Shown in pieces: positions 37,915 to 64,000 of a stretch of 64,000 bases of DNA. Source of the DNA: Guillardia theta CCMP2712 (Eukaryota; Protista; Cryptophyta). Made by a program: the position numbers and the translations under genes. The notes under the pieces were generated by a model that worked only from the letters and a program-made list of their open reading frames with translations, searched no databases and was not told the origin of the DNA. The stretch is from the NCBI RefSeq assembly GCF_000315625.1, contig NW_005434661.1, forward strand, positions 700,020 to 764,019. Direction: 5' to 3'. How positions within the stretch are numbered: the first letter of the stretch is position 1; each line of letters starts with the position of its first letter.

Positions 37915-38526
37915 TGAATTATAAGGGCGTCGGAGCGGCTGCAAGGCGATTGGATACTCCTAGAGCAAGTCATCACAAACTTCTCGCTGTTGGCATGCGG
38001 CAAACCTGACGCCCCATCCTCGGGCTTCTCAGATAGTCAGGAAAGTGATAATCCCCTCCGAATACATTCCGGTCCTGACCCTGCCACACCCGGCTCGTTA
38101 TCGTGATGCTGGGGCCCTCGAAGGCACTTGCGAACCTCATTGGGGTCGTCTGACTGGCCCACACTGTTGGGGGTGACAGACCATGGTGGGGTGAGAGGAA
38201 TGATCTGTAGAAAAGGAACTAAGCGCTAGGTTCAGGTTGCACATCACATACTACCTGTGTCAGATGGATAAGGTTGTGTTGACGCTGTTGCGGCACGTAA
38301 ACTATTCTACCTGGAAGCTTTCGAGAGAGTCAGAGCAACATCAGAAGAAATGGATTCTATCGAACTTGGTATGAGCCCAGGATGACATTGCGTGGAGCCG
38401 TCTGGTAAAGCACATTCCCCTGCTTTCTCTCCCCGGTTGTGTAGAGCGTTCCTGACCGAACTGTTCAGCATCCTCCTCTCCTCTTTACATCAAGATCGCT
38501 CGAGTCGATCCTCATCACCTGCCATG
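37915..38526 (-). CDS. Small hypothetical multi-exon gene; boundaries uncertain
   Basis: Exon WASQTTPMRFASAFEGPSITITSRVWQGQDRNVFGGDYHFPDYLRSPRMGRQ flanked by plausible GT/AG sites. Confidence 0.3.
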
Positions 38527-39093
38527 AAACACAACAGGAGCGAAGCGACCAGCCATCGAGGAGCCGTCACAGCATCACCGTGATGAAAGAGAGTGGATGA
38601 ATACCGTTTCAACGAGTTCTAACGGTTTGTCTTATTTGTAACGGCAAGGTCACTTCATTTGATTTGTCGGTGGCGGTCTTCGATCGATTGGATAGAATTA
38701 AATTCTCAATATTTTCCTGAAAATATTTGAATTTTTCTTTGAATGTTGTTCTGATATTTCAAATATTGGAAATGGGTGTTGTTATCTTTGAATCATTCAC
38801 TACCCCACCCCTGTGAATTGTAGGTGTAGAGGTTTCTAGATATACCCCCACCTCCTGATTTCCAATGCCTTTACCCCCATGACCCTACCCCTCCAATTCC
38901 TTCCCCAACCCCCCAAAATAACAAACCCACCCCAATTTTGCCACGAGGACTACCCCTACCCCTATCAAACTAATGCTCCGTACCAGACATGGCAACCCCT
39001 GACCCCCAGTTTGTAACTCGATCTTGACCATCACCCTACCATCTCGAGCCTCCTGGATAGCAAAGGGGTGGGGGTCCGTTGTCCTCTACCCAC

Positions 39094-39609
39094 ATGCTCC
39101 GCGCCGCTCGCCGCCTCGCAGTTCGCGTTCCTCGCGGCTTCCGCCCCCCAAGCCGCGGCCTCGCCGATGACGCAGCAGCCAAGGGAGGACCCATCCCCAC
39201 CAAGCTCACCTTCAACCTCCTTGCTCCTCACAAGGCCATCTTCAACAAGGCCGAGGTCGACCAGGTCATCGTCCCAGGGGCCGACGGTATGTTCGGCGTC
39301 CTGCCAGGGCACGTTCCCACCATCGCTGAGCTCCGTCCTGGCATGGTTGAGGTTACCGTCGCGTCTGGAGACGTGAAGAAGTACTTCCTTAGCAGCGGCT
39401 TCGCTTTTGTGCACGCTAACTCCACCCTGGATGTGTGCGGGGTGGAGATTGTACAGCTCGATGAACTGGATCCGTCGGCCGTGTCCTCTGGCAAGAGCGA
39501 GGCCGAAAATGCTCTTAGCTCAGCAACAGATGAGGTTGAGAAGGCAAAGGCACAGATAGCAGTTGACGTGTATACAACTCTCACAGAAGCGCTTGCTTCT
39601 AACAAGTAA
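39094..39609 (+). CDS. ATP16: Mitochondrial F1 ATP synthase delta subunit, intronless
   Basis: Arg-rich presequence MLRAARRLAVRVPRGF. Motifs KLTFNLLAPH, VPGADGMFGVLPGHVPTIAELRPG, KYFLSSGFAFVH and EKAKAQIAVDV. Confidence 0.95.
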   Translation: MLRAARRLAVRVPRGFRPPSRGLADDAAAKGGPIPTKLTFNLLAPHKAIFNKAEVDQVIVPGADGMFGVLPGHVPTIAELRPGMVEVTVASGDVKKYFLSSGFAFVHANSTLDVCGVEIVQLDELDPSAVSSGKSEAENALSSATDEVEKAKAQIAVDVYTTLTEALASNK

Positions 39610-39871
39610 TTCATAGTCTATTTGTGTTATGGCATGGGAACACACTTGGGAATGCACATTCTCGCAAGTTGCGCTTTCTGCTGATGTTTTTTTATGGAGA
39701 AAGGGCTATCGTTCAGGATGAGGAAGCAAGTTTTTGGAGCATGACTGACCACTTCCTTGGACATGCGACATGAACATGCAAGGGGCATTCAACCAGGTTG
39801 GCATCTCATCAGGGGCTTGTTGCTTCGAAGAAGAAAACTCTCATTAAATTGTTTCATTGGTTCATCTCTGC

Positions 39872-42458
39872 TCACTCCTCTCTGACCTCCCTCCTCCCGT
39901 TGAGAGCGAGGAGCTTCTCGAGCATGGTTGACACGGTGAACGTCCCAGCTGACTCCTTTCCCAAGCCGCTCATCTGCTTCTCTAGAAGCTGCCGCGTGTT
40001 TGCTATCTTCTTCTCGTTGCTTCCTCTTGCCTTCTCTCTGAGAATCTCTCCTGTCACTTTCCCTCCCTCCTCCCATGTCAACCATCATACCGTGTGAGCA
40101 CGTTGAACAAGAGCTCCAACAGCTCCACGTTGTAGACGAGTGTCAGCGTCTCCTTGGAAGCCAGCGAGTGCACATCGACCATGTCTGCCTGCAGAAACCT
40201 GCACATGGCAGAGAGGACATCAGATGATCCTTCCTCACATCCACCTCTTCTATCCTCCTCCTCTCCCACCTCTCCGCCATCTCCGCCAGCCTCGGCCATC
40301 TGACCTGTGCTCCCCGCACGTCAGCTCTGAATGAGCAACAGTCAAGGAGGACCTGAGCAAGGAGGAGGAGGTATTCAGCCGCTAGGCTCTTGGGAACCAC
40401 TTGTTGCTCGCAGCATATGATGGCATGAAGTAGAATCTCACTCCAGGTCTTCAAGAGCCAACAGGTCAGACAAGCACAGGCTGGTGGTCGCGAGGAGTTA
40501 CCAGGGGGAAGTGTTGGAATGTGTATCTGTCCTTGATCCCATGCACGGTGAAGATGTCGTTGTAGTCTTCGTTCTCATACCATTGTAGCTGCGAAGCAGA
40601 TAAGAACGAGATCTCATCTACGTCGCTCCTCTCACCTTGTTGGCGTGGCCACTGGAAACCGTTTCTTGCAATATTTCCCTCAACTGACAGACAAGGATCA
40701 GGGAGAAGATGAGATTAGGAGTCAATGTGCACAGAATCCGACAAACTTCCTTCCAGCTTCATGCTACTCGATGATTCAGTGAAAACCATCTTTTGAAGTT
40801 TAGTCCTCGCCTTTAGCAGCATCAAAATCAAATCGTGTTTCTTTGTACCGCGCAAGAACAATTTGAGCAAAACTCACTTTTTCGATGGGAGAAAGCGAGG
40901 AGAATGCGCACATTTTCGTCAACCTATCTTCGACGTCCTTCTTATCATTCCTGTGCCTGTACAATAGAGATGTCAACAGGAAACAATGTGACGGCTATGA
41001 TCAACTGACCATGCGATGTGCATCATGACGTCATTCAGCTGCGAGAACGCAACCCCCCACTGACTCTGCATCTTCACATGATCGCTTGCGAGGTTCTTAG
41101 GGAGATTAGAATGAGCCAGATACAGCACGACACAGTCGAGGTACCTGAATGGCCGGATCCATGAAGGCTTCCCAGATTGAGGAGAGCGTCTTCAACTGTC
41201 GTGAGAGGGACATCTGAATATCTTTCCTCCATCCGTTGGCTCCCGCTGTGGTAACAGCAGAAGTGAATCCTTCTTCTGCCCCCGCTCGCCCTCTCTTCCC
41301 GAGGGCGGAGGGCTCAGCGGAATCATGCACTCCCTCCTTCTCCTTGTCCGCGGACTCCCGCGGGGTTTCGCCGGGGGTCAGGTAGAACCATCCCGAGAGC
41401 ACGGATGCTCCTTCATGGCTGTTGTCCGCAACCTCCTGAGCTTCTGAGACGGACGAGCAGGTAGCATTCAGGCTCACTGTATCTTCGCTGCCGTACCTAC
41501 AGAAGAGGGAGTACCTCAACAGGTCCACCAGATACGAGCCGAGCAAGCATAGGTACCCCACGACCGGGTGCAAGTCCCCTAGACCTGACTTGGAGCTCAG
41601 ACTCTGGCAGACTGCGTTGGTTATGGAGGAGGAGACCAATCTCGAGCTGGCCAGATGCTGGTTTGGATGCTTTCCTGGCCCCCCTGTGGCCGCCCTTGGG
41701 GCCGGGGCATTGCGGAGCGGGAAATTCTTCAAAGCTTCAGGAGGGCAGCAGCCGACGAAAGATTCCATCAGGGATCGGATGGCAACCCAGTCGCCCAGCC
41801 CAAAGTGATGCAGGACAGATCTCTCTATATACGGTTGTACCTTGACCAGCTCCTCCTCCTTCAGGACCTCTCCCTTCATCACCTTGCCGACGCACTCCAC
41901 CGCCAGCAACTTGGACCACTCGGTGCAGAACGTCGAGAAAGGATCCTCTCCCATCATCTCCCCCCTCGCCCTCGTGTCGAGCTCAAAGGTGAACTCGCAC
42001 GCCCTCCACCACAGGGCTGTGCTGTTGTCCGTCAACTTGCCGAGGCTCAACAGGATGTTCCAGGTTGAACCATCGTCAGCCTCTTCCTTGCCGTCGAAGA
42101 GCAGAGAGAGGCACTTCTCCAACGGAGCCTCCACGTCTGTCTTGCTCGGTATCAAGATCCCTGATCGAACAAAGTTCCCTGCATCCTTGTTCCCCGCAGC
42201 GAACTGCCGTAGGTCCACCAGGATGAGCTCGCAGAATTGCGACAGCATGTCCTCCTTCTGGCAGATATCGCCGAGAAGGGAGTTGGCACGGGCGTCATCA
42301 CGAGCAAGGCAGCAGGCCTTCCAGAAGTCATAGTTGATCCTCGCGCTGTCAGGGAAAAGACTGATGGCAACGAGGAGGGAAGACCGTGCCTGACTGTAGT
42401 CACCCTGGTCGATCAATGCACGCCCTTCTTGAGCGAGATCCTCCTCCGTCACCGGCAT
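39872..42458 (-). CDS. Helical-repeat protein resembling Integrator complex subunit 10
   Basis: N-terminal ARSSLLVAISLFPDSARINYDFWKA resembles the INTS10 segment [23 protein letters not shown] as recalled. C-terminal exons LVYNVELLELL and TRQLLEKQMS fit loosely. Large first exon from 42458 to about 41145. Confidence 0.5.
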
Positions 42459-42839
42459 GCTCCTCCACTTCAACGGGAGATCCAGGATCGAGCAAGGAAG
42501 ATGCTTTCACGCAGTCATCACGGCATGCAGCACGTAGCGAGCTCCCTCTCCTTGTAGTCTCCCTCCTCTCTGCCAGGCTCTCCTGCGGGCGCCGTCGCAA
42601 AGCTGTTCAAGGTTGAATCTCTTCGGCCCGGCCAGGGTCACCGGGCCGGGGCCCCGCCGGGCCGCGTGACTCGCTGCACTGAGCAGCCCGGGGCCGCTGA
42701 GCCCGGCTGATCACTTGACGTTGCCGCGGCGAAGGAGTGCATGGGGGCCCCCGGCCCCCCAGGCCCCCCCCCCCCCCCCCCGCGCCGGACGCGTTGAGTC
42801 CGGGCCCACCCCGTTCTCCTGAGTTCTCACTGTCAACCG

Positions 42840-43850
42840 TTCAAGTTGACGCCTCCATCCGCGGCCTCCAGAACAGCTTCTGAGCTAGCCTTGAGAGCTT
42901 GGTCTTCTGCAAGCACTGACATTTAAGAGACCGTTGAGATGAATCGTACAAGATGTTTCATTCTAGGCCTGGCCCTTGCTTCGTCTGCAAGTCTGGGTCC
43001 CGTCATCGACGTGAACTCACTGGCTTCATCCTTACTTTACTCGTGTCGTTGACAATCTCCGTGTTGTGTATACAACAGTTGAAAGAGATAGGGCTACCGA
43101 TCACCGTGAAAGTTTGTGTTTTTATCTTCTACAGCAGCTGAAGAGGAGAAGAGTGATAGGATATGTTCACTGACTTTCTGTCTGAAAATAGATTACTTAC
43201 TTTTCTTTCAATCATCTCTAACCGTAGAACGTTGATTTGGAGTAAATTGCCGTTGGATTGTGCATTGCTCTCACACGCTTGCTCTTTGGTTTCTTGACGG
43301 GATCACTTACGGTGTGTCAACACTGGATCGAGAGATACTTGTAGGAAGTTTTTTCTAACATTTTGGTAGCGAAGGTTGGTGACCTTTCGGTTCGGGGATA
43401 AATCCATAGTTCTCAATGCATTGCTCGATACCGCTGCTGAAGAGTCGTTTATCAGCACGAAGGACTCAGTGCGCAAATTTGGTCTGTTGGCCCCACGGTC
43501 ACGGATGCAGAAGTTCGTAAACGAGTTATCATGGCCGACGGGACTAGTAGTACGGTTGTCTGATATACGGTTTTCCCGTGACTGGCCGGGCTCGGACAAA
43601 ATTGGGCCGCCGGTAGGCTCCACTGTCAAGAGTAGTGTCAAGAGTACTACGATGGCATTGACTATGATAAGCCAATAAAGGAATACCTATTCATTAGCAG
43701 AAGAATTGATGTAACTCCGCAATAATGCCTTGATTTCGTCAAGTGTCTTGTTTTGCCGCAGTGCTGCCCTCATTCAGCATGTCATCGCCCTCATCCGTCC
43801 AATCATCACCCTCATACCTTTCCAGTAAACGGTACATGGACAGGTACATG
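42840..43850 (-). pseudogene. Multi-exon gene of unknown function, probably degenerate; paralogue of the fragment at 48428-49132
   Basis: MYLSMYRLLER|AALRQNKTLDEIKALLRSYINSSANE followed by TAG immediately before a GT donor. Shares near-identical blocks with 48428-48570 and 49057-49132. Confidence 0.4.
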
Positions 43851-43999
43851 GATTCCAGTAGGTTTTGGACAATTTGTTTTTTCCCGAAAACTCCCCCTTT
43901 TTTTTCAAGTTTGCGTGGTTGGAGTAGCGGCTTTCGCTGCGGTTTGCCTTTTCTTTTCAATCAATAAAAAGCTTTAAAAAATAATAGCCAAACCAAAAC

Positions 44000-46432
44000 A
44001 TGCCGAAGCGCCGAAGGACCGAGGATCCAGACGACAGCAAGAGAGACTTAGTGAGCTTGCTGCTCGAGTCTGTCTCACAAACTCATGATATGATCAAGAG
44101 CTGCAAAGACCAGGAGCAGAAGCGATGGCTTAGTACACAACTTGAGAAGAAGGAGCTCGAGCTGAAGAATGCGGTTGAGAAGAAGGAGCTCGAGCAGAAG
44201 TATGCGGTTGAGAAGAAGGAGCTCGAGCAGAAGTATGCGGTTGAGAAGAAGGAGCTCGAGCAGAAGATCAAGAGCTGCAAAGACCAGGAGCAGAAGCGAA
44301 GGCTTAGTACACAACTTGAGAAGAAGGAGAGCGAGCAGAAGTATGCGGTTGAGAAGAAGGAGCTCGAGCAGAAGTATGCGGTTGAGAAGAAGGAGCTCGA
44401 GCAGAAGTATGCGGTTGAGAAGAAGGAGAGCGAGCAGAAGTATGCGGTTGAGAAGAAGGAGCTCGAGCAGAAGATCAAGAGCTGCAAAGACCAGGAGCAG
44501 AAGCGAAGGCTTAGTACACAACTTGAGAAGAAGGAGCTCGAGCAGAAGAGTGCGGTTGAGAAGAAGGAGCGCGAGCAGAAGTATGCGGTTGAGAAGAAGG
44601 AGCTCGAGCAGAAGTATGCGGTTGAGAAGAAGGAGCTCGAGCAGAAGTATGCGGTTGAGAAGAAGGAGCTCGAGCAGAAGATCAAGAGCTGCAAAGACCA
44701 GGAGCAGAAGCGAAGGCTTAGTACACAACTTGAGACGAAGGAGAGCGAGCAGAAGAGTGCGGTTGAGACCAAGGAGCACCAGCTCAAAGTGGAGAAGAAG
44801 GAGCTCGAGCAGAAATTCTTGATTCACAATTATATGGCTGGAGGTCGCTTACAGACAGGAGAAATAATGAAGTCGACTTCCGTGATTGATGCAATGGAGG
44901 ATCGTTTTGTGTACGATGAAACGAAGTTGTTTTTGGATATATCGGCAGACAGTGGGAAGGAGTCTGGGTTACGAGCATTTGAGGACGAGGATGTAAAGGA
45001 GAAGGGCATGAGAATTTTCAGCAGAAAGGGACTTCGGGAGCAGATGGACTTCATGCAAAAAAGAGTCATGCAAGCAGGAAGTTTGGGCTGGGTGTTGGGG
45101 GCACCAGGGACGGGAAAGTCTCTTACAGGCCTTGCATTCGCACTCTCCATTGACAGGGAGGTCTGGGGGGTGAGTTGGATGCATATCTCTCCTTATCCTG
45201 CAAAGGCTGTTCAGTGGATCGCTGCAAGGAAAACTGTATATGAAGCTGAATTGCAGACGACAAATGATGACTTTCTGTATGCTCTGCTGAATGGTGTGGA
45301 TGATGATTCTCAGCATGTATTCGTACTGGATGGTTTCGTGCAAGACTCGCACAAAATGTTGCAGCATATGTTGATGAGATGGCGTGAAAAAAAGAAAGAG
45401 AATAGAAGAGTGCTCTTGATTTCATCGATGCAGACCAGGTACAAGGTGAAGTGGGAAGATGATCAGGTTTGGGGCGTGGAGGTATTTCTCCTTGAGTCAT
45501 GGAGACTGGAAGAGTATAAAGAGGCAGTGATGGACGACCTGTTCTACTCTTCTGTTGAAAGGAAATTAGATGCAAACTTGTCTCGAGGATCGGTTGCTCA
45601 ACGGTCATTTTCGAGCAATCTGAGCCGAGAAGATCGAATACTGTCCAAGTATTATTATGCAGGAGGATCATCAAGATACATGTTTCAGATGAGTAGTCAA
45701 CAGATTATCGACGACGTTTCTAACACTGTCAAAAACGTGGGGTTTCTTGAAACTCTCTCCACAAAGATAGGGCAGTACAGTGGGGCTGCAATCAATCGAC
45801 TCTTTTCGATATACAAGGATCAAGACAAGTCAGAATATACTGTATTCTTAAGCAGGTATCTTACAGAGAAGATTTGCATTCAAACAGGGTGTGAACAATT
45901 TACACGGTCTTTGGTGCATTTCTGCACATTGCATCATCCAGTTGCCAAAGGACTCATGCTTGAAGATTTGTTCTTCATGGTGGTACATCACCAAGGTTTG
46001 GCATTGCACGTGCGAGGTGAAGACGCGCAAGAAGCTTGGCAGGCTGCCCCTGTCGTGACTTGCTTGATACCTCTTACGAAAGGAGTGGTGGAGAGTCAGA
46101 GCTGCGACTTTTGGGTGCGACCACCTGATTTCAACCATCCAGGATATGATGGGGTGTTTCTTAGTAGAAGCAGGAAATTAGTACGGTTTGTACAAGTAAC
46201 CGCAGCAAAAGATCATGATCTGAAACTACAATATTTCAAGGAACTCATTGACAATCTTGTTTTAGTAGGATTTCCGGTTCAACGAATAGAAATTTGTTTC
46301 ATCGTGCTCCGTAAGGATCTAGAGTGTTTCAAAGTTTCGAAAGTCTTTGGTCAAGGATCTCTTGAGCAATATGGTTTTGCGAAAGGAAACGAGCGAAGAT
46401 CTATCAGGGTGATGGGTGTTGAGCTTATCTAA
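44000..46432 (+). CDS. Crinkler (CRN)-type effector: NLS + repeat coiled-coil header + P-loop NTPase + PD-(D/E)xK restriction-endonuclease-like domain; intronless, 810 aa
   Basis: N-terminal MPKRRR. Walker A GAPGTGKS, Walker B VFVLDG and the CRN-NTPase motif KYYYAGGSSRYMF. REase motifs LMLE and WVRPPDFNHPGYDGVF...VRFVQVTAAKDHDLKLQYF. Confidence 0.85.
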   Translation: MPKRRRTEDPDDSKRDLVSLLLESVSQTHDMIKSCKDQEQKRWLSTQLEKKELELKNAVEKKELEQKYAVEKKELEQKYAVEKKELEQKIKSCKDQEQKRRLSTQLEKKESEQKYAVEKKELEQKYAVEKKELEQKYAVEKKESEQKYAVEKKELEQKIKSCKDQEQKRRLSTQLEKKELEQKSAVEKKEREQKYAVEKKELEQKYAVEKKELEQKYAVEKKELEQKIKSCKDQEQKRRLSTQLETKESEQKSAVETKEHQLKVEKKELEQKFLIHNYMAGGRLQTGEIMKSTSVIDAMEDRFVYDETKLFLDISADSGKESGLRAFEDEDVKEKGMRIFSRKGLREQMDFMQKRVMQAGSLGWVLGAPGTGKSLTGLAFALSIDREVWGVSWMHISPYPAKAVQWIAARKTVYEAELQTTNDDFLYALLNGVDDDSQHVFVLDGFVQDSHKMLQHMLMRWREKKKENRRVLLISSMQTRYKVKWEDDQVWGVEVFLLESWRLEEYKEAVMDDLFYSSVERKLDANLSRGSVAQRSFSSNLSREDRILSKYYYAGGSSRYMFQMSSQQIIDDVSNTVKNVGFLETLSTKIGQYSGAAINRLFSIYKDQDKSEYTVFLSRYLTEKICIQTGCEQFTRSLVHFCTLHHPVAKGLMLEDLFFMVVHHQGLALHVRGEDAQEAWQAAPVVTCLIPLTKGVVESQSCDFWVRPPDFNHPGYDGVFLSRSRKLVRFVQVTAAKDHDLKLQYFKELIDNLVLVGFPVQRIEICFIVLRKDLECFKVSKVFGQGSLEQYGFAKGNERRSIRVMGVELI
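44093..44815 (+). repeat. Coding higher-order tandem repeat: 33-bp units nested in 174/207-bp super-units
   Basis: 33-bp unit gagaagaaggagctcgagcagaagtatgcggtt (EKKELEQKYAV). The IKSCKDQEQKRRLSTQL block starts at 44093, 44267, 44474 and 44681. Confidence 0.95.
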
Positions 46433-46639
46433 TTGGACACTCCACTCATTTCAATATTTCAGTGGTGCTGAGTACCTGGAATTGAATCTGTTGAAGCAAT
46501 CATACTTCAGTAAACATGTTTGAACCTAGAATTACTATGACATTTTATTGCAAATACACATTCTAGTCATCTCTCTTTCTTCACCCTCTTGTTTGTAAGT
46601 GATTCTCCTGTCACTGTCCGAGGCTGATCTCTGAATCAA

Positions 46640-48314
46640 CACTACGCTTCGTAACTCTGGAAACATTCATATCTTCGTAACTCTGGAAAGCATTCGACAC
46701 TGCATCAAAGCCTGTTCACGTTGTCGAAGGGCTTTCAAAGACATCGACTTGACAACTGTACAGAATTATGCAGTGTTCACTGACGCAATGGTGCTGAAAT
46801 TGTTACATTTTCTGCAAAACATCGGGCACGAAACGTTGAAGGTAAGCGACACGCATGATAGCTTGCTACAAGCAGCGTCTATTTATCTCAAGCTGAGCCA
46901 GCATACCATGAACACTTCTCATGTACGAGCAAAGTTTACGCTTCTAGGAGACCTCTTTGGACAGAATGCTGACCTCATTGGACAGAATGCAGAGGGCTTC
47001 AAAAATTGTTTCCATCACTACTTCACCTCGTTTCAACATGGAGCAGATGCTAAAATGCTAGACGCGCATACTATTCGAGGTCAAGTAGAGAATCATCGGC
47101 AAAAGCACAAGTCATTTTGTAAGAAAATCAGACATTGGGGCACCTCGCACTATGACACTTTTGGTGAGTTACAAGAGCAAATACACGATTATCACTCAAG
47201 GTAACCACTGACATGCCTCCAATGCAGGTATGTAAGCCTGAACATATTAGCCAAGACCAGAACAGAACGATTGATTACAGATGGATTGGAAGAATTTGAT
47301 CCAAACAAGATTAGGTTTCAATTCAACGAGTACTTGTCAAACCCTCAGTTATCTCTCTAACAACAAAGAAGCTACATTTCTTTGCGCCATGTATCAATCA
47401 TTCACTGAAGAATGTCAGGCACACGGTTGGCTCGGGGAGACACCCGACTGCACAGCAAGAGGCTAAACAATGGCATGCTGCGTACACTGATATTGTCAAG
47501 GAGAATTCGTCATGGCTAACGCAGCTGCAAGTCGATGGGTGCACTGACCCTCAATCAGTGGATATCATGTTAAAAATGTTCAGCAGCAAGACCATATCGC
47601 TTCTGAATGCAGAGGGACACATTGAAACAGCAAGAATGGCAGAAGCAATGAACGGCCTTCACAGAGCTTTCGACGAGAGAGGCCTCACCAAGTCTGAAAG
47701 AAGAAATCTCATTCTTAGAGCTCGAACCTGGCTTCTAAGAGATGTGGATTGGATGAGGGTGGGCAAGAAGCACATGAGGGGGTTGTCATCTGTAACCTTC
47801 GAAGGACTGATTGTAGCCATGGACACACATCTACAGATACAGAGTTATTTGAGCAACAACGAAGGTGTGTTGGGTGAAAAGGAGTATGAGTTCAATGCAC
47901 GGACGCTCTGCACAGACAGCGTTGAAAACCTCTGGTCTTTGATAGGTCATTTGAACAAGAAAGATTTCTTGAGGAAATTCAACAAAGCATGCACTGAGCT
48001 CTCAAAAAAATTCGATCCCAATCTGCCTTTTGTGTATGACCACCAAAAAAGCGAATCATTCTTGGAAACCACGCGGGGAGAAGAAGCTTTTCAACGCTGA
48101 AGAAGGAACACGGGACAAAGAGAATGAGTGCAGGTCCCAACCTAGATCTCGTAAACGTATACATGCTCGATCTTTGGATACACGAGGAGGATTCACAGGA
48201 CAAATGCCTAGATTTCAGGGACTACGAACTGTGTCTGGTTGTAGGTCTACGGAAGAAGAGATAGAAAGGACAAAATGTCGAAAGTTAAGACGTGTACAAA
48301 GCGAACAAGTATAG
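46640..48314 (+). mobile_element. Degenerate DDE transposase of the C/DxxH group, P-element/THAP9-like
   Basis: Open frame from about 47315 to 48100: FFAPCINHSLKNVR (CxxH), DPQSVDIMLKMFS, AFDERG, RGLSSVTFEGL and NARTLCTDSVENLWSLI (catalytic-E motif like QDxLExFF). Apparent frameshift near 48040. No clear N-terminus. Confidence 0.6.
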
Positions 48315-48427
48315 AGAATGACAATTTGTATGTATCTCTGAATATAAAATGTCTGTTTTGCATTGTACTGATTTTCATTCTTGAGTTATTCATCCTCGAA
48401 ACAGTTAGTCGCGGGATCGCCATTGCG

Positions 48428-49152
48428 ATTTAAGAGACCGTTGAGATGAATCGTACAAGATGTTTCATTCTAGGCCTGGCCCTTTCTTCGTCTGCAAGTC
48501 TCTTTGCCCCTTGTGATGCCTGGGTCCTGTCATATCTGGGTCCCGTCATCGACGTGAACTCACTGGCTTCCGAGGCCAGCTGGTCTATGAGGATGGGTTT
48601 AGATCCTAGGTTCCAAAGCAGAGTACTTGCAAGCTGCTCAGCTGCCCGCGCGTGAGTACGAATCTTGGCAACAGGTGCTTCTAGCGTTGACGTGGCGATA
48701 TGCATGCTGCGAAAGGACATGGAGCATGACAAGCAGCTGCAGCTGCAGCAGTTGGAACGGGATAAAAGGAATCTTTCTTTCCAATCTTTCTTTCCAATTA
48801 CTACAAGCGCCAACTGTCCGCCATGACTCAAAGGTGTGTGTTTTGATTGATTGAAAGCGGCAGGATGATGGTGCAAACATAGTATCTGGTTGAGAGGCTG
48901 TCCATGAAGGTATTGAATGTTGCTTCCGTCGGCAAGGATAAGGTGGTCGAATCCGCGGTAGCAGAGTTGCCGCAGAGGGACTGAACCTGATTGAGCAAGG
49001 GCGGATCTCCATGAGTGACATGAATCAGCTCCTGAAAGACCTGGCAAGAAAGCAGTGTTGAAAGAGATAGGGCTACCGATCACCGGGAAAGTTTGTGTTT
49101 TTATCTTCAACAGCAGCTGAAGAGGAGAAGAGATTTTTCGGAGAGCTTGCAC
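48428..49152 (-). pseudogene. Gene fragment of unknown function; longer copy of the sequence at 42921-43153
   Basis: 240-aa ORF on the minus strand. Blocks 48428-48570 and 49057-49132 are nearly identical to 42921-43027 and 43078-43153. Confidence 0.4.
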
Positions 49153-49562
49153 GGCTTTTCAACAGGAGGGTAGACTATTTCGACCGGCGGCGTGGGATAG
49201 TGTCAAGCAGCTGCGGGAGAGCACTGAGGGCCATAAAACGAGGATGATGAATCCGAGCTACGGTACTGAGGTCATGAGGTTAGTCGCGGTGTCGGCCTTG
49301 AAAGCTTACAGCCCTTGTCATGCTGCACGGTTCTCAGTGACTAGTTCGAATCCGCGGGCCGGGCTGGCCCAGTGGGCCGGGCCACCCCGGGCCCCCGGGC
49401 CCGGCGGCTTGAAGTCACTGTCAAGTTCAGTTTACTGGTCTTTACTTTACTCAAAGTTAAGTTAAAAATCTGGTTTCCCCCAAACTTAACTGATACCTTG
49501 TACTGGTACTCCTGGCGATCGTCTTGATCGCCCCGCGCCGTATAGGGCCGGCGGTTGGCCGC

Positions 49563-51148
49563 ATGCCACCGGCAGGCAAGCAGGGTGACGGAGGCAACCG
49601 AGCAGACGACGGGAATCAGCGACGTGAAGGAGGCAGTGAGGAACGAGGGAGAGTGGCTGAGGGAAGAGACTCGGAGGGAGCCTGGGGGGAGAGAGCAGCC
49701 TTAGTCCCGATGGAGGAAACGAGAGGAGACAGAGGGATCGTTGGGTCAAGGGAGGGTCGGGGCACGCCGTATAGCGGCGGGTCACGGAAACGATCCCTAT
49801 CGGTAGCAAGTGGAGGAGAGAGATTCAGTGGCTACATCAAGAACTTTCCTTACTGCCAGAAGAAACCTGGGGAGGGAGGAGAGAGAGATCGATTCCGCAC
49901 GACATACACGCGGGTAAACGAGCACCGACTGAGCGAGGACGCGTTTAGACTAGCAGGGGGGACCGTGGTGGGCCATGCCCATCACGTGGGAGGGTTTTAC
50001 ACCGCGTCCAGTCCCAACAACTTCCGGAAGGTGATGGGACAAGGGGATGAGGTGCAGGAAGGAGTTTCTCCTTACTCCTCCCGCAGTTTCCGACGGAGTA
50101 CATGACTAGCTCGCAAGTGTCCTGGGTCGACCCAAAGCAGCAGGTGAGGTCAGAGTCGCTGATGCACGTCAGCGGGGGAAGAGCAGGAAGGTGCAAGGTG
50201 TTGAGTACGAGCACAGATGAGCGTGACGAGGAAGAGCCATCGAGGGATCGCGGCAGAGTTCATCCCGACAAGGAAAAACATCTCAAGTGGATGGAGAGAA
50301 AACAACGTGACTAGGTATAGCCGTTGCTTCGTGATCACTGTTTATCCCTTGTCCTTACCTCTGTTTTGGTAGAAATCTGTGGATGAGTCATGGAGATCAG
50401 TATTCGGTCGCTCCTTCACCATCAGCTTCATCCTTGTCACTGCCGGAGAGGCCAAGTACAGCTCAGGTCGAATCGGCTGCGCTATCCAGTAAGGAGCCGC
50501 TGTTAGATGTGAAGCCCGTTGACTCGATGAGAAGGTGGGTACTCGCGCTCTAGGGCGAAGATATGCCTGGGGAGCAGCGACGAAGAGTACTTGAGCACCA
50601 ACACCATCAACAGCATGAGAAACCTGGAAAACCTGCATGAAAACAACGCCATCTTCCCTCTAACTCCTGAGCTCCAAGAGGTCTGCACTAGCTGCCCCTT
50701 CCAGCAGTCGTTGACTTTGATCTTAGGAGCTGCGCGATTCTGGCTACAGCAAGAACGTCCCCATCACGACCCAACCCTTCGATGCTCACCGAAAGGTCCT
50801 CTGACGGTCAGCCGCACAGTGCCCCGCTGACGAGCTCTGCAGTCATTCCAGCCCCTGAGCAGCACAACCAAGGAGGACTACAAAGACCCCACGTCCTTCC
50901 GGAGGAAACAACACGTTGTCCGACCTCCCTCCACCTCGTCCTCCTCCTACGGGAGGATCTCCACAGCTCACAGGTTCGAAAAGATGAAGATGCCGTCCTT
51001 GGAGGACCTTCATCCTGCCGTAGCGAGTCTGTGGAGAGCGAGAGACCCCCTTTACTACAAGCACACGACCTTCAAGGTGACGGACGGCTTCAACTCTAGC
51101 AAGGACTTGAGGACTTACACGATCGAGGCGATGCGTGCGAGTATATGA
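49563..51148 (+). CDS. Hypothetical protein, possible ciliary microtubule-inner (SAXO/Mn-motif-like) protein
   Basis: Recurrent short motifs DRFRTTYTR, MTSSQVSWVDP, WRSVFGRSF, YLSTNT and LSSTTKEDYKDP. Stop at 51148. Confidence 0.45.
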
Positions 51149-51179
51149 AGCGGGACATTTTTCTATGAAGCTATGCAGC

Positions 51180-52037
51180 TCAATCATCGGAATCACTGTT
51201 ATCGACGATGAGGCGACGAGGTTTCTCTTCTTCCTCCTCGTCATCGTCCCCACGGTGCCTCCTTGAGCTCACGACAATGTTGGACGTCTCGATCCCATCC
51301 AACTCTCGGCTGAGTGCCACCTGGTCCCACAAACTTCAGCCCCTCTCCCCCGACTCCTCCAATCACCTTCCGCTTCAACTCAGCGATCTCCACACGGCTA
51401 GGATTCAATGACGGCAGCCCGCGCTCAAGGAGATATTTCCCGATCCTCCGAGCGAGCTCGTCACTATCAGGCTCACCCTTGAAGCAGTTCACAGGAACCA
51501 CTAGATCGCATTTCTTAGCCAACTCCTTCAGCCTCTGACATTCCTTGGAGAGCTCCGTCTTCACAGGCTCCTTGTCGGCCTTGTTGCTCTTTGTCTTGCC
51601 CTCCCTCGACTTCTTGCTCGCTTTGGGTCTCTCGTCCTCAGAGTCGCTCTCGCTTTCGCTCTCTAACTTTCGTTTCGAGGGTTTGACTCGCTTCTTCGCT
51701 GTCTCGGCGTTGCCTTTCTCCTCGCTACCATGGTGATCGGGATTCTGCCTCTTCTCCTTCACCTTGGACCTCGACTCGATCTCCTCTTGGACTTGGAGGA
51801 ACAAGCGCTGAACCTCGTCCTTGAAGTATTCCGAGTTCCCTTGGATGTCGTCCTCGCTCACTTGCTTCTTCTTCGCCATGTACTCCTTGATGTTTCTTCT
51901 CGCTGTGGTGTGAAGTCATGAGAGAGAACAAGACGATTGATTAGAGCCTCACTGATGCTGTCGATGGGAGCATTCTTAGTCAGAGCCCTCAGCGCTTCCT
52001 CGATCCCCTGCGAAAGTCTTTTCTTGATGTCTCCCAT
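51180..52037 (-). CDS. HIRIP3-like histone chaperone (CHZ-type C-terminus)
   Basis: Acidic/basic linker, then RLKELAKKCDL, YLLERGLPSLNPSRVEIAELKRK and LSRELDGIETSNIVVSSRRHR. Confidence 0.7.
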
Positions 52038-52365
52038 GCTTGTGATGGCTTCCTGGAGAAGCCGATTCAGATAAGGCGAACTGATTCGATGCTGAGCAGA
52101 AAGCAAGGATGGACGAAGAAGGCAAGCAAGAGGACTGATGCGATAGAAGTCTACCACAACCATGCACCAAAACTTGCTAGAAATGGGGGGGAGCACGAAA
52201 AAGTCCAAGAGGTGGGCGGGAGGTGTTGAAGGAGATGGAGGAGAAGTGAGAGGCTGCAACAGAGACATCTCCCCCCTTTCTTTCCCTCGAGCCAGCCTCT
52301 CTTCTGCTCTCCTCCTGCCCTGACCTCCTGCCCTCCCTCCCTCCCGCCTCTTGTTCCATTGCCAC

Positions 52366-52411
52366 TTTCCCGCCTACTTGAACGATTTCAATGAACTTCC
52401 GTTTCAAACGG
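52366..52411. promoter_or_regulatory. Candidate cell-cycle promoter module: E2F-like site + palindromic MYB/MSA sites overlapping a CHR-like hexamer
   Basis: TTTCCCGCC at 52366-52374 and CCGTTTCAAACGG at 52399-52411, between the divergent HIRIP3-like and Rid genes. Confidence 0.35.
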
Positions 52412-52455
52412 TTACAAAATTTCCCAGTGTGACCTCATGCCGACATCTGGACAAG

Positions 52456-52863
52456 ATGGAAATGCATGGAGGAGGTGAGGGAGGAGGAGGGGCGGTGAGG
52501 AGGCTGAGGACGGGGGATCCGAGATGTTCAGGGATCGTGTGTTATGGAGGGATAGTATACCTGACGGGTCAGACGTCGGATGAAGGGGAGGACATCCGAT
52601 CGCAGACTAGGAGAGTCCTCGAGAAGATCGACGCGTTGCTGGCAGAGGCCGGCAGCGATAAGTCGAGGCTTCTGACCGCCATGATATGGCTGAAGGACAT
52701 TCAGAGGGACTTCCATGGGATGAATGCCGTGTGGAACGATTGGGTAGATGCTGAAAACAAGCCCACGAGGGCGTGTGTAGAGGGGAGGCTGGCGAGGGAG
52801 AAGCTGCTGGTGGAGATTCAAGTTACAGCAGTGTCACCGCAATCGGCTCGTTCAAGGCTCTGA
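52456..52863 (+). CDS. Rid (YjgF/YER057c/UK114) family protein, YoaB/Rid2-like, intronless
   Basis: IVYLTGQ, IRSQTRRVLEKIDALLAEAGSDKSRLL, IWLKDIQRDFHGMNAVWNDW, PTRACVEGRLA (catalytic Arg retained) and LVEIQVTA. Confidence 0.9.
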   Translation: MEMHGGGEGGGGAVRRLRTGDPRCSGIVCYGGIVYLTGQTSDEGEDIRSQTRRVLEKIDALLAEAGSDKSRLLTAMIWLKDIQRDFHGMNAVWNDWVDAENKPTRACVEGRLAREKLLVEIQVTAVSPQSARSRL

Positions 52864-52888
52864 TAGGAGAATGGGGATGAAAACGCTC

Positions 52889-55800
52889 TCATGTTCCAAC
52901 GTGCGAAGGCTCACGAGATGAATCTAAGGAATCGTTTACCACTATCATGCATGAAGAGATCCAAGGCTTCGAATTAATAAACTTCACCACGCTTTGCTCC
53001 CTGCAGGTCGCATGAGTGTCCTTCTTCTCCTCCTTCACCACCACCACCATATCTTTCTCCTCCTCCTCCTCCTCCTCCTCCTCGATCAGGTTTGAGTTCA
53101 GTACCTTGAGCATGTTTTTGACGAAGTCGTTGAACTTGGAGTTGTCGATGAGGTCCTCCATCCTCTTGTGGCATCGCCAGATCCAGCAGCCGTCGGTGGA
53201 TCCGGGCCTGTTGATCATGTCGCTCTTGGGATTCTGCGACCTCATGTTCTCCCACATGTCAAGATAATCCTTGAGGGTGCAGCTCGTCAACAGCTCTGAC
53301 ACCACAGCAGATTCCTCACCTGGATGGGGTTGATGGTCCACATAGCTGAGCTCTCCGCGTGCATCTTGATGATCTTCTGGCTGATCCAGTCAGGAGGACC
53401 ACCCGGCATGTTTCCTTGCCCAATGAACTCATGGTAGAATCGCTCAGCCTCGCCCCAGTTCTCGTTCCACCAGAGCCTGCAAGGGCTGCAATCGTGGCAA
53501 GAGCTTGCTGCCACGGTCAAGTAGCCATAGTCCCACGTCTTTCCGTCGCACCACCTTTGAATCTTCAAACCTAAGATGCCCAGCTCAAGCAGGACAGGGC
53601 CAACCTGTGTGTCGTCAGAACATCCAGCGTTAAGACGAGTTTGCACGCTCACCTCTGGGGGAACATTACCCAGATCTTCACCACAGATCATCATGTTGGA
53701 GGCGGTCTGGATTGCTCGCAAGTTGCGGAGCCCGTTCTCACGAAGTCCACCGTTGGGTTCGTACCTTCCTCCACCACCACTCTTGGGGATTTCCCACATA
53801 CGGAAGAATCCAAGGACGTGGTCGATGCGGTACGCATGGAAATACTGCTCCATATGGGTGAGCCTGCGGCGCCACCAGCTGCAGCCATCACGATGCATCT
53901 GATCCCAGTTGTATGGAGGAAATCCCCAGTTCTGCTCCGGGTCACCGGGGGCTCCAGCGTTCCTGTCCAGCTTGAACAGGTTCGGCTCTGCCCACACATC
54001 CTGGCTGCAACGAGTAACGCCGATGGGCAAATCTCCTTTCAATGCGACACCCTGTCAGCGAAAGTGAGGAAGAACAAACGAATCCGGCAAGCATGAATAC
54101 CAGGCCCTCGGCATACTCTGAAGCTTCCTTCAACTGGCAGTGAAGATGGTACTGAGTGAAGTACACACGCACAACATGATCGTAATCTGGCCCGTTAGAG
54201 TTGACAATGTTCTCGGCCTCTGTGACCCTCTTCGACCATGTGGTGCAATCAAACCATTTGTTGTTGAAGCCCTTTTCCTTTTCCATTTGCACTTTGAATG
54301 CAGCATACACCTAACGAGTCGTTACATTCGGAAGAATCTTCGAGCTTTAGACCTTCAACCACTTGCTGTTCTTCTCAATCCAGTCTGTAAAATCTTTGTC
54401 GGAAAGGATCTGATTTCAAGCGAAAAAGTCAAAACAGCATGTTCCAAAGTCTTTCACATCAACCTTCTCTTTACCAACTGCGTCGAAGATTCCATCAAGA
54501 ATTTTCTTTTTCTCGTACAATATCTTGGGATAGTCTATCTTCCAGTTTCCATTCAGCTTGTCCACCAAACTCTGCAGTGACCCAATCAAACTGATTCACT
54601 TCGTTTGTTTCCACTTCACCTGAGCCCATCCAAGTGGCCCACTCATGTCCACACCAAATTTGGATGAATAATACGAGCAAACGCTCTTCGGCTGAACATA
54701 GATGGGGTGCAATGCAAATGCAGAGCAAGCGCTGTACGGGGATGGATCTTCGCCGGAATCATTGATGGGCAAAATCTGAACGAGCTGCAGGCCTGACGAC
54801 AAATCCATGTCAATTGTCAAAGAAACTTTTTGCGACTACAGATACCAGATCTGACGCACCAGTCTGCCATCTTCTTGATATCGAGGAATTCACCTGCATT
54901 GCACGTTAGAGGTCATGTGATAGAGTTTGGAAGTTGACGGGATTGGCTCACCAATTCCAGTAGAATCACGAGTCTTGATCCCAGAAACAGGAATAGCGAC
55001 ACCGGCTGCCTTGAAAACAGGATTGTAGTAATTGAATGCCTCATCCTGTTTGACCGAACCAATTAGAATGCTACCAGATTAGAGATTTGTCGGTTCGCTT
55101 GCCTTGAGGACGAATTTCGTGCCTGCATCTCCTCCATCAAGAGTCATTTTCCTGTTGCTCTTCTCGGAACAAACAGGCTTGCCATCGCTTAGATTTACAA
55201 AGTCACAAGGAAGGCAAACTGCAATTTGAAGTTTCACACCTATCCACGATGACATACTTGTACTCGAATGGAAATTCAGAGCGTGGGACCTCAACTTGAG
55301 CAATAAACACTTGACTTCCAATATTTGCCATCTTAATCTACGTATTTCGACGTTAAAACACCCACGGCAAACAAACATTAGCATTACTTTGCTTGAGTCG
55401 CTGAATGATCCCATGGCAGCGGGCTTTCCCTGAGGATGTAGAAGTAAGGGAAGACAACAACAGCATCTGAGCCGAGACTACCTGGACCCACACGCTGTGT
55501 CCAGCATCCATACGTGGAGCAAACAAGGCAAACCTCACGGTGACTCCATCAGAGTCAGACTTTCCGTTTGGACTCCAGGTGATCTTGGCATGCTCCACTT
55601 CTGGGTTCTGCGTTTCGAGAGTTTTGGAAGTCTTCCCCTTTCCAAACACTGCACGCGAGAAGCATGATGTGGCCAAAGTAGCAGGCTAAGAAGAGTAGGG
55701 TCACTGACGCGTGGAGGGAAATGAAGCAATTTCACCTTGGGTGAACGGAAAGAATCCTGTACGTAGACCTTAGCACCGTCAGGCAAGCCTTGGACGTTGA

Positions 55801-56608
55801 TGGATCTGTCCGCAATGCGAGCTTCGTATCGATGCGTCTTAGCGAGCACAACGTAGTGGTACTTCACAACTCCCTCAGTCAGCGGCACCTGTACTGTGCC
55901 TTCCCATTTCTCTCCCTCCTTCCTCTGCAGTCGCGGAGCTGGGAAGGATAATCAATGAAACCCGGGGGTTTGAAGAGATGGGATCTGCTACCTCTATTGA
56001 TATCATTGTTGCCAAAGCAGCTTGCAGGGCCAACAGCTACAATGCTTCCACCATCTACACCGTAGTTGATGGATAGCTTGAGGGTTACAGTTCCTGTAGA
56101 AGCTTCTCCCGGAGTCTTCGTGATTGGGAGTCCCTCCAAGGATTGCTCGCCGCCCCTCAAACTTTGCACTCGAAAACGTGAAGGAACGAGCCTCGCTTGA
56201 AAGGGAGCAGAGAATCCTCTCGGATTGTAATGTTGCAAAGAAACAGCCTGCCAAGAGGTTAGATTCAAAGCTGAGAGCTTGACTCGAGATTCGGACAAGC
56301 TGGGGGAAGAGATCTCACAAGTCGAGGTAAGTAGGATGAGTCACGATGTTCAACATGCGTGTACAGAGGGAACCAATCAAGTTGAGCAAGCCATTCAAGG
56401 GTAGGATACGAAGGTGTACGATGAAAAGTGCCAGGATGGTCAGGATCAGGGACAAGGGGCAACAAAGAGGACAAGAATGATCGTTTGAAACACGGGGTGC
56501 AGGTCATCGAAGCAGGAGGAGGAGATGTGCTGGGAGTACCTCAGCAGAGGCGACGAGGAGAAGAAGGGAGACTAAGACCGAGCATGCAAGCGACTCGCGC
56601 CGCGCCAT
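52889..56608 (-). CDS. DPE2: 4-alpha-glucanotransferase (GH77, DPE2-type) with CBM20-like domains and a bipartite presequence
   Basis: GH77 motifs LVQILPINDSG..SPYSACSAFALHPIY, KGDLPIGV, QNWGFPPYNWD, AYRIDHVLGFFRMWEIP, ICGEDLGNVP, SSCHDCS, INPIQDYL and INRPG. Exon 1 (56608-56540, MARRESLACSVLVSLLLLVASAE) splices in phase 0 to 56247 (AVSLQHY...QSLRGG). Confidence 0.92.
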
Positions 56609-56629
56609 GCCGAGAGTGTCCATCCGCAG

Positions 56630-57870: not shown

Positions 57871-58408
57871 CCTTGGTGGTATGTGTTTGATCGGGAGGAG
57901 TTGAGATTATGGCGACGGATGAAAGGAGGATGCGAACAAGGACCAGGGGAGGGAGGGAGGGGAAGGGGAGAGAGAAGGGGAGGAGTATACAGTGAGATAT
58001 ATAACCTTTCAGACAAGTCTGAGAGGCGAAGAGTGGGAAGTTGAAGGCGGCAGAGAAAGAAATTTCCAGCCGAAGTTATGCTGGTGAAACAATAGCTGAG
58101 GAGAGGTTTAGGAGGTTAGTATACAAATTCTCGATCTGGCAGATATTGAGAAGTGAGGTATCGATTGATAAAAGGACAAATGAGCATAGTCGAAGCATTT
58201 GACTGAATGATAAAAAGTTAGGCTATTCGAGGTCAGCCAAGGTCTGACCATTCCCGGCAGCATTTGAAGTGGGTGGGATGGGTTTTCTGTGTACAGTTTG
58301 CCATGCAATTGGCAATTTATTGCTAGCATCGTGTGAAAGATGCTGATATCCGCATACTCCAAGACACTCAACTTGAGGGACGGTTCCGTTGCTACCAACT
58401 AGCAAGCA

Positions 58409-64000
<5,592 letters not shown>

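What the first reader, a model, noticed from the sequence alone, without database searches (positions are those of the whole stretch)
42840..49152. Effector-carrying mobile island: intact Crinkler NTPase-nuclease plus decayed P-like transposase, bracketed by direct repeats
Seen in the sequence: this block lacks the CCT/GGA microsatellite introns of flanking genes and looks more AT-rich. It sits between two housekeeping-type genes. Its order is gene fragment X (-), intact CRN ORF (+), transposase relic (+), second copy of X (-). Established: CRN/RHS-type NTPase+REase effectors are linked to transposons and are best known from oomycete, fungal and trypanosome parasites. Inference: this is a DNA-transposon-associated cassette spreading a nuclear-acting nuclease toxin or defence effector in a free-living alga, with X a recurrent passenger gene of the element.
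Basis: partly seen in the sequence, partly recalled or inferred. Interest (0 to 1): 0.8.

Follow-up and report, generated by a model that had tools for sequence, protein, structure and literature searches.

The report
Crinkler nuclease gene amid transposon scraps
In the alga Guillardia theta an intact, transcribed gene of the Crinkler family (a predicted DNA-cutting toxin best known from plant pathogens) sits among scraps of repeats that differ in copy number, so the block is likely a repair-built patchwork rather than one transposon carrying a toxin.

Summary
The parts are real; the cassette reading is not supported. The AT-rich block (GC 0.456) holds an intact 810-aa Crinkler-type NTPase+REase gene with all conserved motif residues, a P-like transposon relic, and partial direct repeats. 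The pieces differ in estimated copy number: Crinkler about 4, X about 4, P-like 10-15, left repeat Y 11-15, spacer 1. The majority Crinkler contig runs from the gene's 3' flank into X without the transposase. Other P-like copies continue past the X junction into other DNA. The relic is internally deleted, frameshifted and cut before its right end. I found no terminal inverted repeat, target duplication or empty site. Junctions show 1-4 nt overlaps, as break repair would leave. Only the Crinkler-X link recurs; X has no identified product or strand. This copy's allele dominates the 3' RNA reads, and its coiled-coil header is repeat-expanded. Crinklers in free-living eukaryotes are already published. 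No assembly was available, so other copies were seen only through contig tables. The scan noted similar repair patchworks elsewhere in this genome, but not this gene.

The parts
41106..42506 (-).
   Evidence: 466-aa ORF; TPR_11 E 0.0012; X1 contig 38000-42631 at 63.9x with 0 differences
42921..43027 (.). Copy of the first 143 nt of X, lacking 36 nt; overlaps repeat Y by 4 nt
   Evidence: blastn and alignment; loose ends before 43024 in X2 and X7
43024..43520 (.). Repeat Y: truncated piece of a high-copy family (about 11-15 copies) of unknown class; holds the 76-nt stretch also found in X; weak aspartic-protease-like motif at 43370-43500
   Evidence: X1 contigs at 672x and 922x against 63x; Asp_protease_2 E 0.12 only
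43521..43939 (.). Spacer upstream of the Crinkler gene, single-copy at the 88-90% level
   Evidence: X1 contig of 419 nt at 47.9x, 0 differences
44000..44821 (+). Crinkler header: basic N-terminus (MPKRRR), then a charged coil built of 33-nt units inside a 207-nt unit repeated 3.1 times (44142-44777); about 275 aa here, about 80 aa in copy P0142
   Evidence: no LxLFLAK or HVLVxxP motif and no strongly hydrophobic N-terminal stretch
44822..46432 (+). Crinkler core: STAND/AAA+-like NTPase (GAPGTGKS 367-374, D444, R559) plus predicted REase (E655, D717, Q732, H739); about 4 copies; this allele is transcribed
   Evidence: depth 248-277x; RNA reads of X24 and contig of X7
46433..46669 (+). Crinkler 3' flank shared with other copies; ends beside a 17-nt direct duplication (46648-46664 and 46674-46690)
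   Evidence: majority contig aligns to 46669 and then leaves; sequence
46670..47265 (+). 5' coding piece of the P-like element (about 15 copies), with small internal deletions
   Evidence: P0064 joins 47152-47265 to the N-terminus of P0014; contig at 931x
47265..48430 (+). 3' part of the P-like transposase (CxxH, GTP-binding-like insert, last catalytic Glu) after an internal deletion of about 460 codons; frameshifted near 47346, 48043 and 48067; cut before the element's right end
   Evidence: tblastn covers only P0014 449-684 and P0007 519-845; indels and loose end at 48430; contigs at 615-742x
48428..49161 (.). Repeat X (about 4 copies), linked to the Crinkler 3' flank in other copies; product and strand unknown
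   Evidence: bins at 236-238x; joint 46669 to 48687 in X1, X2 and X16; single-copy contig starts at 49132
49162..50757 (.). Right single-copy flank
   Evidence: X1 contig 49132-50757 at 62.2x, 0 differences

Best explanation
The block holds an intact, transcribed Crinkler-type gene of about four close copies, predicted to encode an NTP-gated DNA nuclease, among scraps of higher-copy repeats, and the cut-down P-like transposon piece was likely patched in behind it by break repair rather than carrying it. Step 1 (shown): the Crinkler gene and X are linked and amplified together about fourfold, three annotated copies on one scaffold and one on another. Step 2 (inferred): they spread by ordinary segmental or tandem duplication. 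Step 3 (inferred): at this copy, template-switching repair brought in a piece of Y upstream and a dead P-like piece plus the start of X downstream, leaving 1-4 nt overlaps, a 17-nt duplication and partial direct repeats. Step 4 (inferred from motifs, fold and the Crinkler literature): the protein stays in the cell, enters the nucleus by its basic N-terminus, and its ATPase gates a restriction-fold nuclease aimed at invading DNA; it is not a secreted, host-entering effector.
For: Depth over single-copy flank contigs (63x) in X1: Crinkler 3.9-4.4, X 3.7-3.8 (bin sums), P-like 9.8-14.8, Y 10.7-14.6, spacer 0.8. The Crinkler figure matches 4 CCMP2712 models in the 90% cluster. The majority Crinkler contig leaves at 46669 and rejoins at 48687 in 3 of 3 non-RNA contig runs (X1, X2, X16); 1 of 400 shuffled 69-mers gives a match of 18 of 20 or better. 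Other P-like copies go on past 48430 with non-X DNA in X1 and X7; the junction here is a 3-nt overlap. The relic lacks the conserved DG aspartate and has three frameshifts; the transposase contig in RNA-like run X7 is another copy that continues 5' (19 differences). No convincing terminal inverted repeat or target duplication. 0 of 9 other P-like models on the two scaffolds of the close Crinkler copies. 0 of 20 metagenome loci with Crinkler relatives carry the transposase, X, Y or the 5' piece (loci only 1.0-7.4 kb). Sense 3' reads in X24, with 72 of 94 carrying this copy's base at 46390.
Against: No assembly was held, so the other copies were seen only as short contigs and capped tables (44 loose-end rows and 193 piece rows hidden). 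About 49 letters between 46669 and 48687 in the majority form are unknown, so loss of the P-like piece from the other copies is not excluded. Y and the 5' P-like piece have nearly equal contig depth (922 and 931 in X1; 62.7 and 58.1 in X2), which would fit Y being the element's left arm with the Crinkler gene inside it. A distant Crinkler (P0004) and a distant P-like fragment (P0019) lie 9 accession numbers apart on a 127-kb scaffold; chance about 0.03 under uniform placement. Unannotated relics beside the other copies cannot be seen. Selection on the gene is not shown: 8 replacement and 3 silent differences, p 0.71 against neutrality. The nuclease fold was not confirmed by structure search. 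X1 and X2 may be one strain.
Confidence: 0.63

Rival explanations
1. One reading: a P-like DNA transposon captured the Crinkler gene and carried it. Y would be the left arm and 46670-48430 the decayed right part; the other Crinkler copies would have lost the transposase part later.
For: Near-equal depth of Y and the 5' P-like piece; same strand and only about 240 nt between the Crinkler stop and the relic; a second loose Crinkler/P-like neighbourhood on another scaffold; published precedent of a Crinkler-like gene moved by flanking hAT and mariner elements in fish (PMC12957317, section 8 read).
Against: Both ends are cut, since other copies continue beyond 43024 and 48430; no inverted termini or target duplication; the spacer before the gene is single-copy; P-like copies outnumber Crinkler copies about threefold; none of 148 proteins held links Y to the transposase.
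Confidence: 0.17
2. The Crinkler-X unit is itself the selfish element: its ATPase plus nuclease would cut chromosomal DNA, and repair from a sister copy would multiply the unit and scar its surroundings, without any DDE transposase.
For: Four copies at about 98% amino-acid identity, three on one scaffold; Crinkler and X share depth and linkage; repair-type junctions on both sides; the NTPase fold is tied at the top with MuB (Z 11.1, rmsd 4.8, 197 aligned) and TnsC (Z 10.9, rmsd 4.0, 198 aligned); such domain pairs are linked to prokaryotic mobile elements (PMC5289972, section 11); no sign of purifying selection between copies.
Against: No defined termini; the MuB and TnsC matches are tied with non-mobile ATPases (PAB2304 Z 11.9, DAP3-type mitoribosomal chains, SSO1545 Z 11.4); four copies are few; other repair patchworks in this genome lack a Crinkler (scan notes e1-10635698 and e1-10681626, unchecked).
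Confidence: 0.13
3. A KolobokP-like composite element: X is a long terminal direct repeat and the interior encodes a transposase and a nuclease.
For: X is about 730 nt and the left side shares both its first 143 nt and a 76-nt stretch near its end; KolobokP has 450- or 660-bp terminal direct repeats around a DDE transposase and a nuclease (PMC9587614, abstract).
Against: No inverted repeat at the ends of X; the left copy is not a deleted X, as its middle belongs to Y; the majority X form skips the 76-nt piece; the transposase is P-like, 10-15 copies, and not joined to X elsewhere.
Confidence: 0.05

Closest known systems
Crinkler/RHS-type (CR) proteins with NTPase + HTH + REase C-terminus (Zhang et al. 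2016, seen only through the review PMC5289972); nearest named relatives from Lagenidium, Phytophthora, Chytriomyces, Aphanomyces and Thraustotheca
   Same: 25-32% identity over 85-97% of the core; all conserved NTPase and REase motif residues kept; a helical header in place of the ubiquitin-like one is a known option, as is occurrence in free-living eukaryotes.
   Different: No LxLFLAK/HVLVxxP ubiquitin-like header; a tandem-repeat coil instead, whose length differs between copies; host is a photosynthetic cryptophyte; on a long branch with no supported sister beyond its own paralog.
P-element superfamily transposons and their internally deleted derivatives (PMC7776569, passages)
   Same: Atlas neighbours carry PF21787, PF21788, PF21789 and PF12017 (score 0.95); conserved DG aspartate, C/DxxH and final Glu; internally deleted copy.
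   Different: No direct Pfam hit; relatives are a divergent group, 11 of 34 with a YqaJ nuclease domain; no THAP domain seen; termini and 8-bp duplication absent at this copy.
AACRNL of teleosts (PMC12957317; abstract, introduction and section 8 read)
   Same: Crinkler-like gene in a free-living eukaryote, without the classical targeting header, multi-copy and near DNA transposons.
   Different: AACRNL is an ADP-ribosyltransferase with flanking inverted repeats reported; here the enzyme is NTPase+REase and no flanking termini were found.
KolobokP composite-like transposons (PMC9587614, abstract only)
   Same: Superficial layout: direct repeats around a nuclease and a DDE transposase.
   Different: Repeats here are partial and mosaic, lack their own inverted ends, and are not tied to the transposase in other copies.

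Membership tests
CR (Crinkler/RHS) NTPase+REase protein | Full-length homology of the core to named Crinkler C-termini | tested here: met
   Profile search gave 25 hits; 5 are named crinkler/CRN and 5 carry PF20147, E 1e-106 or better
CR (Crinkler/RHS) NTPase+REase protein | P-loop NTPase with intact Walker A, Walker B and conserved Arg | tested here: met
   G372 31 of 31, K373 30 of 31, D444 31 of 31, R559 31 of 31 rows; model pLDDT 83.8; AAA+/STAND-like folds, top Z 11.9, rmsd 4.5, 238 aligned
CR (Crinkler/RHS) NTPase+REase protein | C-terminal restriction-endonuclease-fold domain with catalytic residues | tested here: inconclusive
   E655 31 of 31, D717 30 of 31, Q732 31 of 31, H739 30 of 31; the REase reading of these motifs is recalled; the fold search was filled by the NTPase part and barely tested residues past 326
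Canonical oomycete Crinkler effector | Ubiquitin-like header with LxLFLAK and HVLVxxP | tested here: not met
   No motif match; no PF20147 hit; header is a repeat coil
Canonical oomycete Crinkler effector | Delivery into another cell | not testable with these tools
   Highest 12-residue hydropathy in the N-terminus is 1.1; delivery needs experiment
P-superfamily transposase (the family of the relic) | RNase H DDE core with C/DxxH and GTP-binding insertion | tested here: met
   In intact relatives: second Asp in 19 of 19 rows with letters, His in 22 of 22, Glu in 22 of 22; PF21787 above cut-off in 1 of 34 relatives and below it in 1 more; Atlas 0.95. The first Asp did not align and rests on analogy
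P-superfamily transposase (the family of the relic) | Fold match to the solved P transposase | tested here: inconclusive
   Model of P0007 unusable (pLDDT 41.5); no PDB sequence hit
Mobile P-like element at this locus | Terminal inverted repeats and 8-bp target site duplication | tested here: not met
   None at the island, relic or Crinkler-X ends; right end cut at 48430
Mobile P-like element at this locus | Intact transposase in this copy | tested here: not met
   P0014 residues 1-448 absent, three frameshifts
Cargo-carrying cassette (Crinkler + transposase + X) | Same order and shared boundaries at other loci | tested here: not met
   Unequal depths; majority Crinkler contig skips the transposase; P-like copies do not run into X. 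Indirect: no assembly held
Cargo-carrying cassette (Crinkler + transposase + X) | Empty site in another strain | tested here: inconclusive
   No joint across the block among those listed for X1, X2, X7 and X16; contigs are short and 7 rows were hidden
KolobokP-like composite element | Two full terminal direct repeats with their own short inverted ends | tested here: not met
   Left copy shares only 107 + 76 nt; no terminal inverted repeat in X

The most novel reading that the evidence does not exclude
The Crinkler-X unit is a self-copying nuclease element: a eukaryotic NTPase+REase gene that still spreads by cutting DNA and being copied in repair, with no DDE transposase. It would be a living example of the mobile ancestor proposed for Crinkler effectors, in a culturable free-living alga, with the most expressed copy marked by a repeat-expanded header.
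Probability: 0.13. Interest if true: 0.75.

Novelty: new member of a known kind. Interest (0 to 1): 0.3.

Why it matters
As found, it is a modest result: an expressed, catalytically intact Crinkler-type gene in a culturable photosynthetic cryptophyte, annotated only as a hypothetical fragment. It offers a simple system for the open question of what Crinklers do in organisms that infect nothing. The header varies from about 80 to 275 aa between copies, and similar charged repeat headers occur in several environmental relatives, which points to a recurring non-secreted architecture. A toxin-carrying transposon would matter more, but the evidence points away from it.

Tried and rejected
Whole-genome tests were impossible, as no assembly is held. 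DNA patterns from X (metagenomes), the transposase and the Crinkler gene (viral contigs) found nothing. Protein scans of viral contigs with X and the transposase alignment found no relative; the scan with the Y ORF reported 2 related stretches but returned no locus. No prokaryotic relative by one peptide pattern (weak). No Rfam family in 42000-50000. The transposase model was unusable and was not used for a fold search. PDB sequence searches: nothing for the transposase, E 0.84 at best for the Crinkler core. The codon model for the strand of X was weak, and one of nine training stretches was on the wrong strand, so it is not used. No RNA holder was on record in the run list; X7 lacks cover over X, which is no proof of silence. 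Joints 42783 to 49442-49449 were rejected as an empty site: 20-nt sides, unknown letters between, a poly-C tract on one side and a short high-copy motif on the other. The 9-mer shared by 42893 and 49141 was rejected as a target duplication: it is near chance level, and other X copies run through it. No REase structure was listed in the fold search, which barely tested that part. Zhang et al. 2016 is not held, so whether it or its supplements already list these Guillardia proteins is unchecked. Paper searches listed no paper with both Crinkler and Guillardia (one search showed 15 of 967).
Full report
SOURCE AND LIMITS. The closest protein to the ORF is 98% identical and is named from Guillardia theta CCMP2712. 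Two proteins encoded by the window are recorded on a contig of 1,062,263 nt (P0010; P0018). No assembly was held, so other copies were studied through annotated paralogs and through public contigs and reads laid on the window. Copy numbers below are contig depths divided by that of the two flank contigs with 0 differences (63.9x and 62.2x in X1). The tool warns that summed depth is no copy number. I used single-contig values except for X, where only bin sums were shown. The Crinkler estimate agrees with the annotation.

OBSERVATION. The block has GC 0.456, the lowest 6.3-kb window in the 64 kb, and its genes have GC3 0.46-0.51 against 0.64-0.71 for six other ORFs. The missing microsatellites are not diagnostic, because both flanks lack them too. 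Three direct repeats of 74, 36 and 76 nt exist. The 810-aa ORF is open.

THE CRINKLER GENE. A profile of the core found 25 proteins, 5 named crinkler or CRN and 5 with the Pfam Crinkler header PF20147. In 31 aligned rows the Walker A (367-374), Walker B D444, R559, E655, D717, Q732 and H739 are conserved in 30 or 31 rows for the key residues and are intact here. The model (pLDDT 83.8) matches AAA+/STAND-like ATPases: PAB2304 Z 11.9, SSO1545 11.4, MuB 11.1, TnsC 10.9, all tied (Foldseek agrees on AAA+). The nuclease part was barely tested by fold, so REase rests on motifs and on the known NTPase+REase architecture (PMC5289972, passages and section 11 read). The header has no LxLFLAK motif and no strongly hydrophobic start. 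It begins MPKRRR, which resembles a nuclear localisation signal (recalled, untested), and is a coil made by a 33-nt unit inside a 207-nt unit repeated 3.1 times. Copy P0142 has a header of about 80 aa. Charged repeat headers also occur in L002, L003, L013, L014, P0004 and P0121. The 90% cluster holds four CCMP2712 models, three on this scaffold and one on a 213,589-nt scaffold, plus two ENA proteins; depth gives 3.9-4.4 copies. Between this copy and the majority contig there are 8 replacement and 3 silent differences among the 11 listed places used, which cannot be told from neutrality (p 0.71); four listed places in the header end were left out.

EXPRESSION. RNA run X24 has depth 47.7 on the sense side against 0.75 in the bin with the gene's 3' end; the strand was read from neighbouring genes of known orientation. 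Reads with this copy's base are 56 of 78 at 46342, 72 of 94 at 46390, 68 of 109 at 46444 and 35 of 40 at 46535. At 46390 the three other CCMP2712 models have another residue. A 1,561-nt contig of X7 (RNA by guess) matches this copy with 0 differences where the DNA majority contigs differ. This copy is therefore probably the main transcribed one. The strain of these runs is not shown to be the same.

THE TRANSPOSON RELIC. Intact relatives P0014 and P0006 (90-92%) and P0007 and P0015 (65%) match only 47265-48311. The Atlas places P0007 beside P-element transposase clusters (0.95). A profile search found 104 relatives. Among 22 aligned rows the DG aspartate is kept in 19 of 19 rows with letters, the C/DxxH histidine in 22 of 22 and the final glutamate in 22 of 22. 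Of 34 relatives scanned, 2 hit PF21787 (1 above cut-off) and 11 carry YqaJ. The piece 46670-47265 is the same element's 5' part: P0064 joins its end to the N-terminus of P0014, and the X1 loose end at 47265 reads into the same peptide. The relic has thus lost about 460 codons with the DG aspartate (D347 of P0007), at a 1-nt overlap, and has frameshifts near 47346, 48043 and 48067. The transposase contig in X7 comes from another copy, with 19 differences and a 5' continuation like P0014. At 48430 other copies go on with non-X DNA in X1 and X7, so the right end of the element is missing here; the junction with X is a 3-nt overlap.

X AND Y. X (48428 to about 49161) has about 3.7 copies, like the Crinkler gene. 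The majority Crinkler contig leaves the window at 46669 and, after about 49 unseen letters, matches X at 48687 over 20-26 nt in X1, X2 and X16; 1 of 400 shuffled 69-mers reached 18 of 20 matches. So Crinkler and X are linked elsewhere without the transposase. The left repeat is the first 143 nt of X less 36 nt, fused at a 4-nt overlap to Y, a family of about 11-15 copies with other left neighbours elsewhere. A 188x contig of X skips 49031-49112, so the 76-nt repeat likely belongs to Y and entered X locally. The spacer 43521-43939 is a single-copy contig. X has no identified product. A 242-codon frame is open on the minus strand and a few X24 reads lie on that strand near its end (depth 2.6); the plus strand has an ATG with a hydrophobic start at 48446. 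The strand is unresolved.

CASSETTE TEST. No convincing inverted repeat or target duplication was found at the ends of the island, the relic, X or the Crinkler-X unit; P elements have terminal inverted repeats and 8-bp duplications (PMC7776569, passages). Nine other annotated P-like models lie on nine scaffolds, none being the two with close Crinkler copies; only clusters of my queries were read, and unannotated relics are invisible. None of 20 short metagenome loci with Crinkler relatives carries the other parts. No empty site was listed. Against my reading: Y and the 5' P-like piece have nearly equal depth in X1 and X2; the direction of change at 46669 is unknown; and the distant Crinkler P0004 lies 9 accession numbers from the distant P-like fragment P0019 on a 127,488-nt scaffold, with chance about 0.03 under uniform placement over 23,640 models, an underestimate if repeats cluster.

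MECHANISM. Shown: the parts, their unequal depth, the Crinkler-X link, the truncations and overlaps, transcription. Inferred: the Crinkler-X unit was duplicated a few times recently, and this copy gained Y and a dead P-like piece through template-switching repair (0.63). Rivals: cargo of a P-like element (0.17), a self-copying nuclease unit (0.13), a KolobokP-like composite (0.05; PMC9587614, abstract only). For the protein I favour a cell-internal, nuclear, ATP-gated nuclease acting on invading DNA, in line with the proposal for non-secreted CR proteins in the review; this is untested.

NOVELTY. CR proteins in free-living eukaryotes are published, as is a Crinkler-like gene spread by flanking transposons (PMC12957317; abstract, introduction and section 8). 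My searches listed no paper on Guillardia Crinklers, but the key survey and its supplements could not be read. The scan's notes hold no look-alike of this DNA and two unrelated repair patchworks in this genome. Verdict: new member of a known kind; interest 0.3.

Noticed in passing
P0004 (EKX34136) and P0019 (EKX34127), 127,488-nt scaffold: A distant Crinkler (32% identity) and a distant P-like fragment (47%) lie 9 accession numbers apart: a second, loose neighbourhood of the two families.
   Followed up: partly
P0006, P0007, P0013-P0016 and relatives P0022-P0120: G. theta holds at least two subfamilies of a divergent P-like transposase with no Pfam hit, with intact-looking models and transcripts; 11 of 34 distant relatives scanned carry a YqaJ nuclease domain before the core. 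Termini are unknown.
   Followed up: partly
window 44142-44777: Nested 33-nt and 207-nt coding repeat that lengthens the header from about 80 aa (P0142) to 275 aa in the copy that seems most transcribed.
   Followed up: partly
window 43370-43500: LLDTAA motif with a weak retropepsin-like Pfam hit (E 0.12) inside repeat Y; Y may be an LTR-retrotransposon scrap or the P-like left arm. The viral-contig scan reported 2 related stretches but gave no locus.
   Followed up: partly
window 49440-49470: Short AT-rich motif beside a GC-rich intergenic tract with very high summed depth (bin 940x in X1); many unrelated contigs touch it. Possibly a small dispersed repeat or promoter element.
   Followed up: no
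window 42826, 43624, 49417: The word CACTGTCAA recurs next to GC-rich intergenic tracts and upstream of the Crinkler gene; possibly a promoter motif (seen, not tested).
   Followed up: no
run X16 laid on 38000-54000: A freshwater metagenome holds a diverged Guillardia-like strain (0.7-7% different in flank contigs) with the Crinkler-X link and fewer P-like copies; useful for an empty-site test.
   Followed up: partly
window 25851-29090 (+): A 1,079-codon open frame with no Pfam hit at E 0.01.
   Followed up: no
window 54000-58500: Second, milder low-GC stretch (0.45-0.51) around the 4-alpha-glucanotransferase gene.
   Followed up: no
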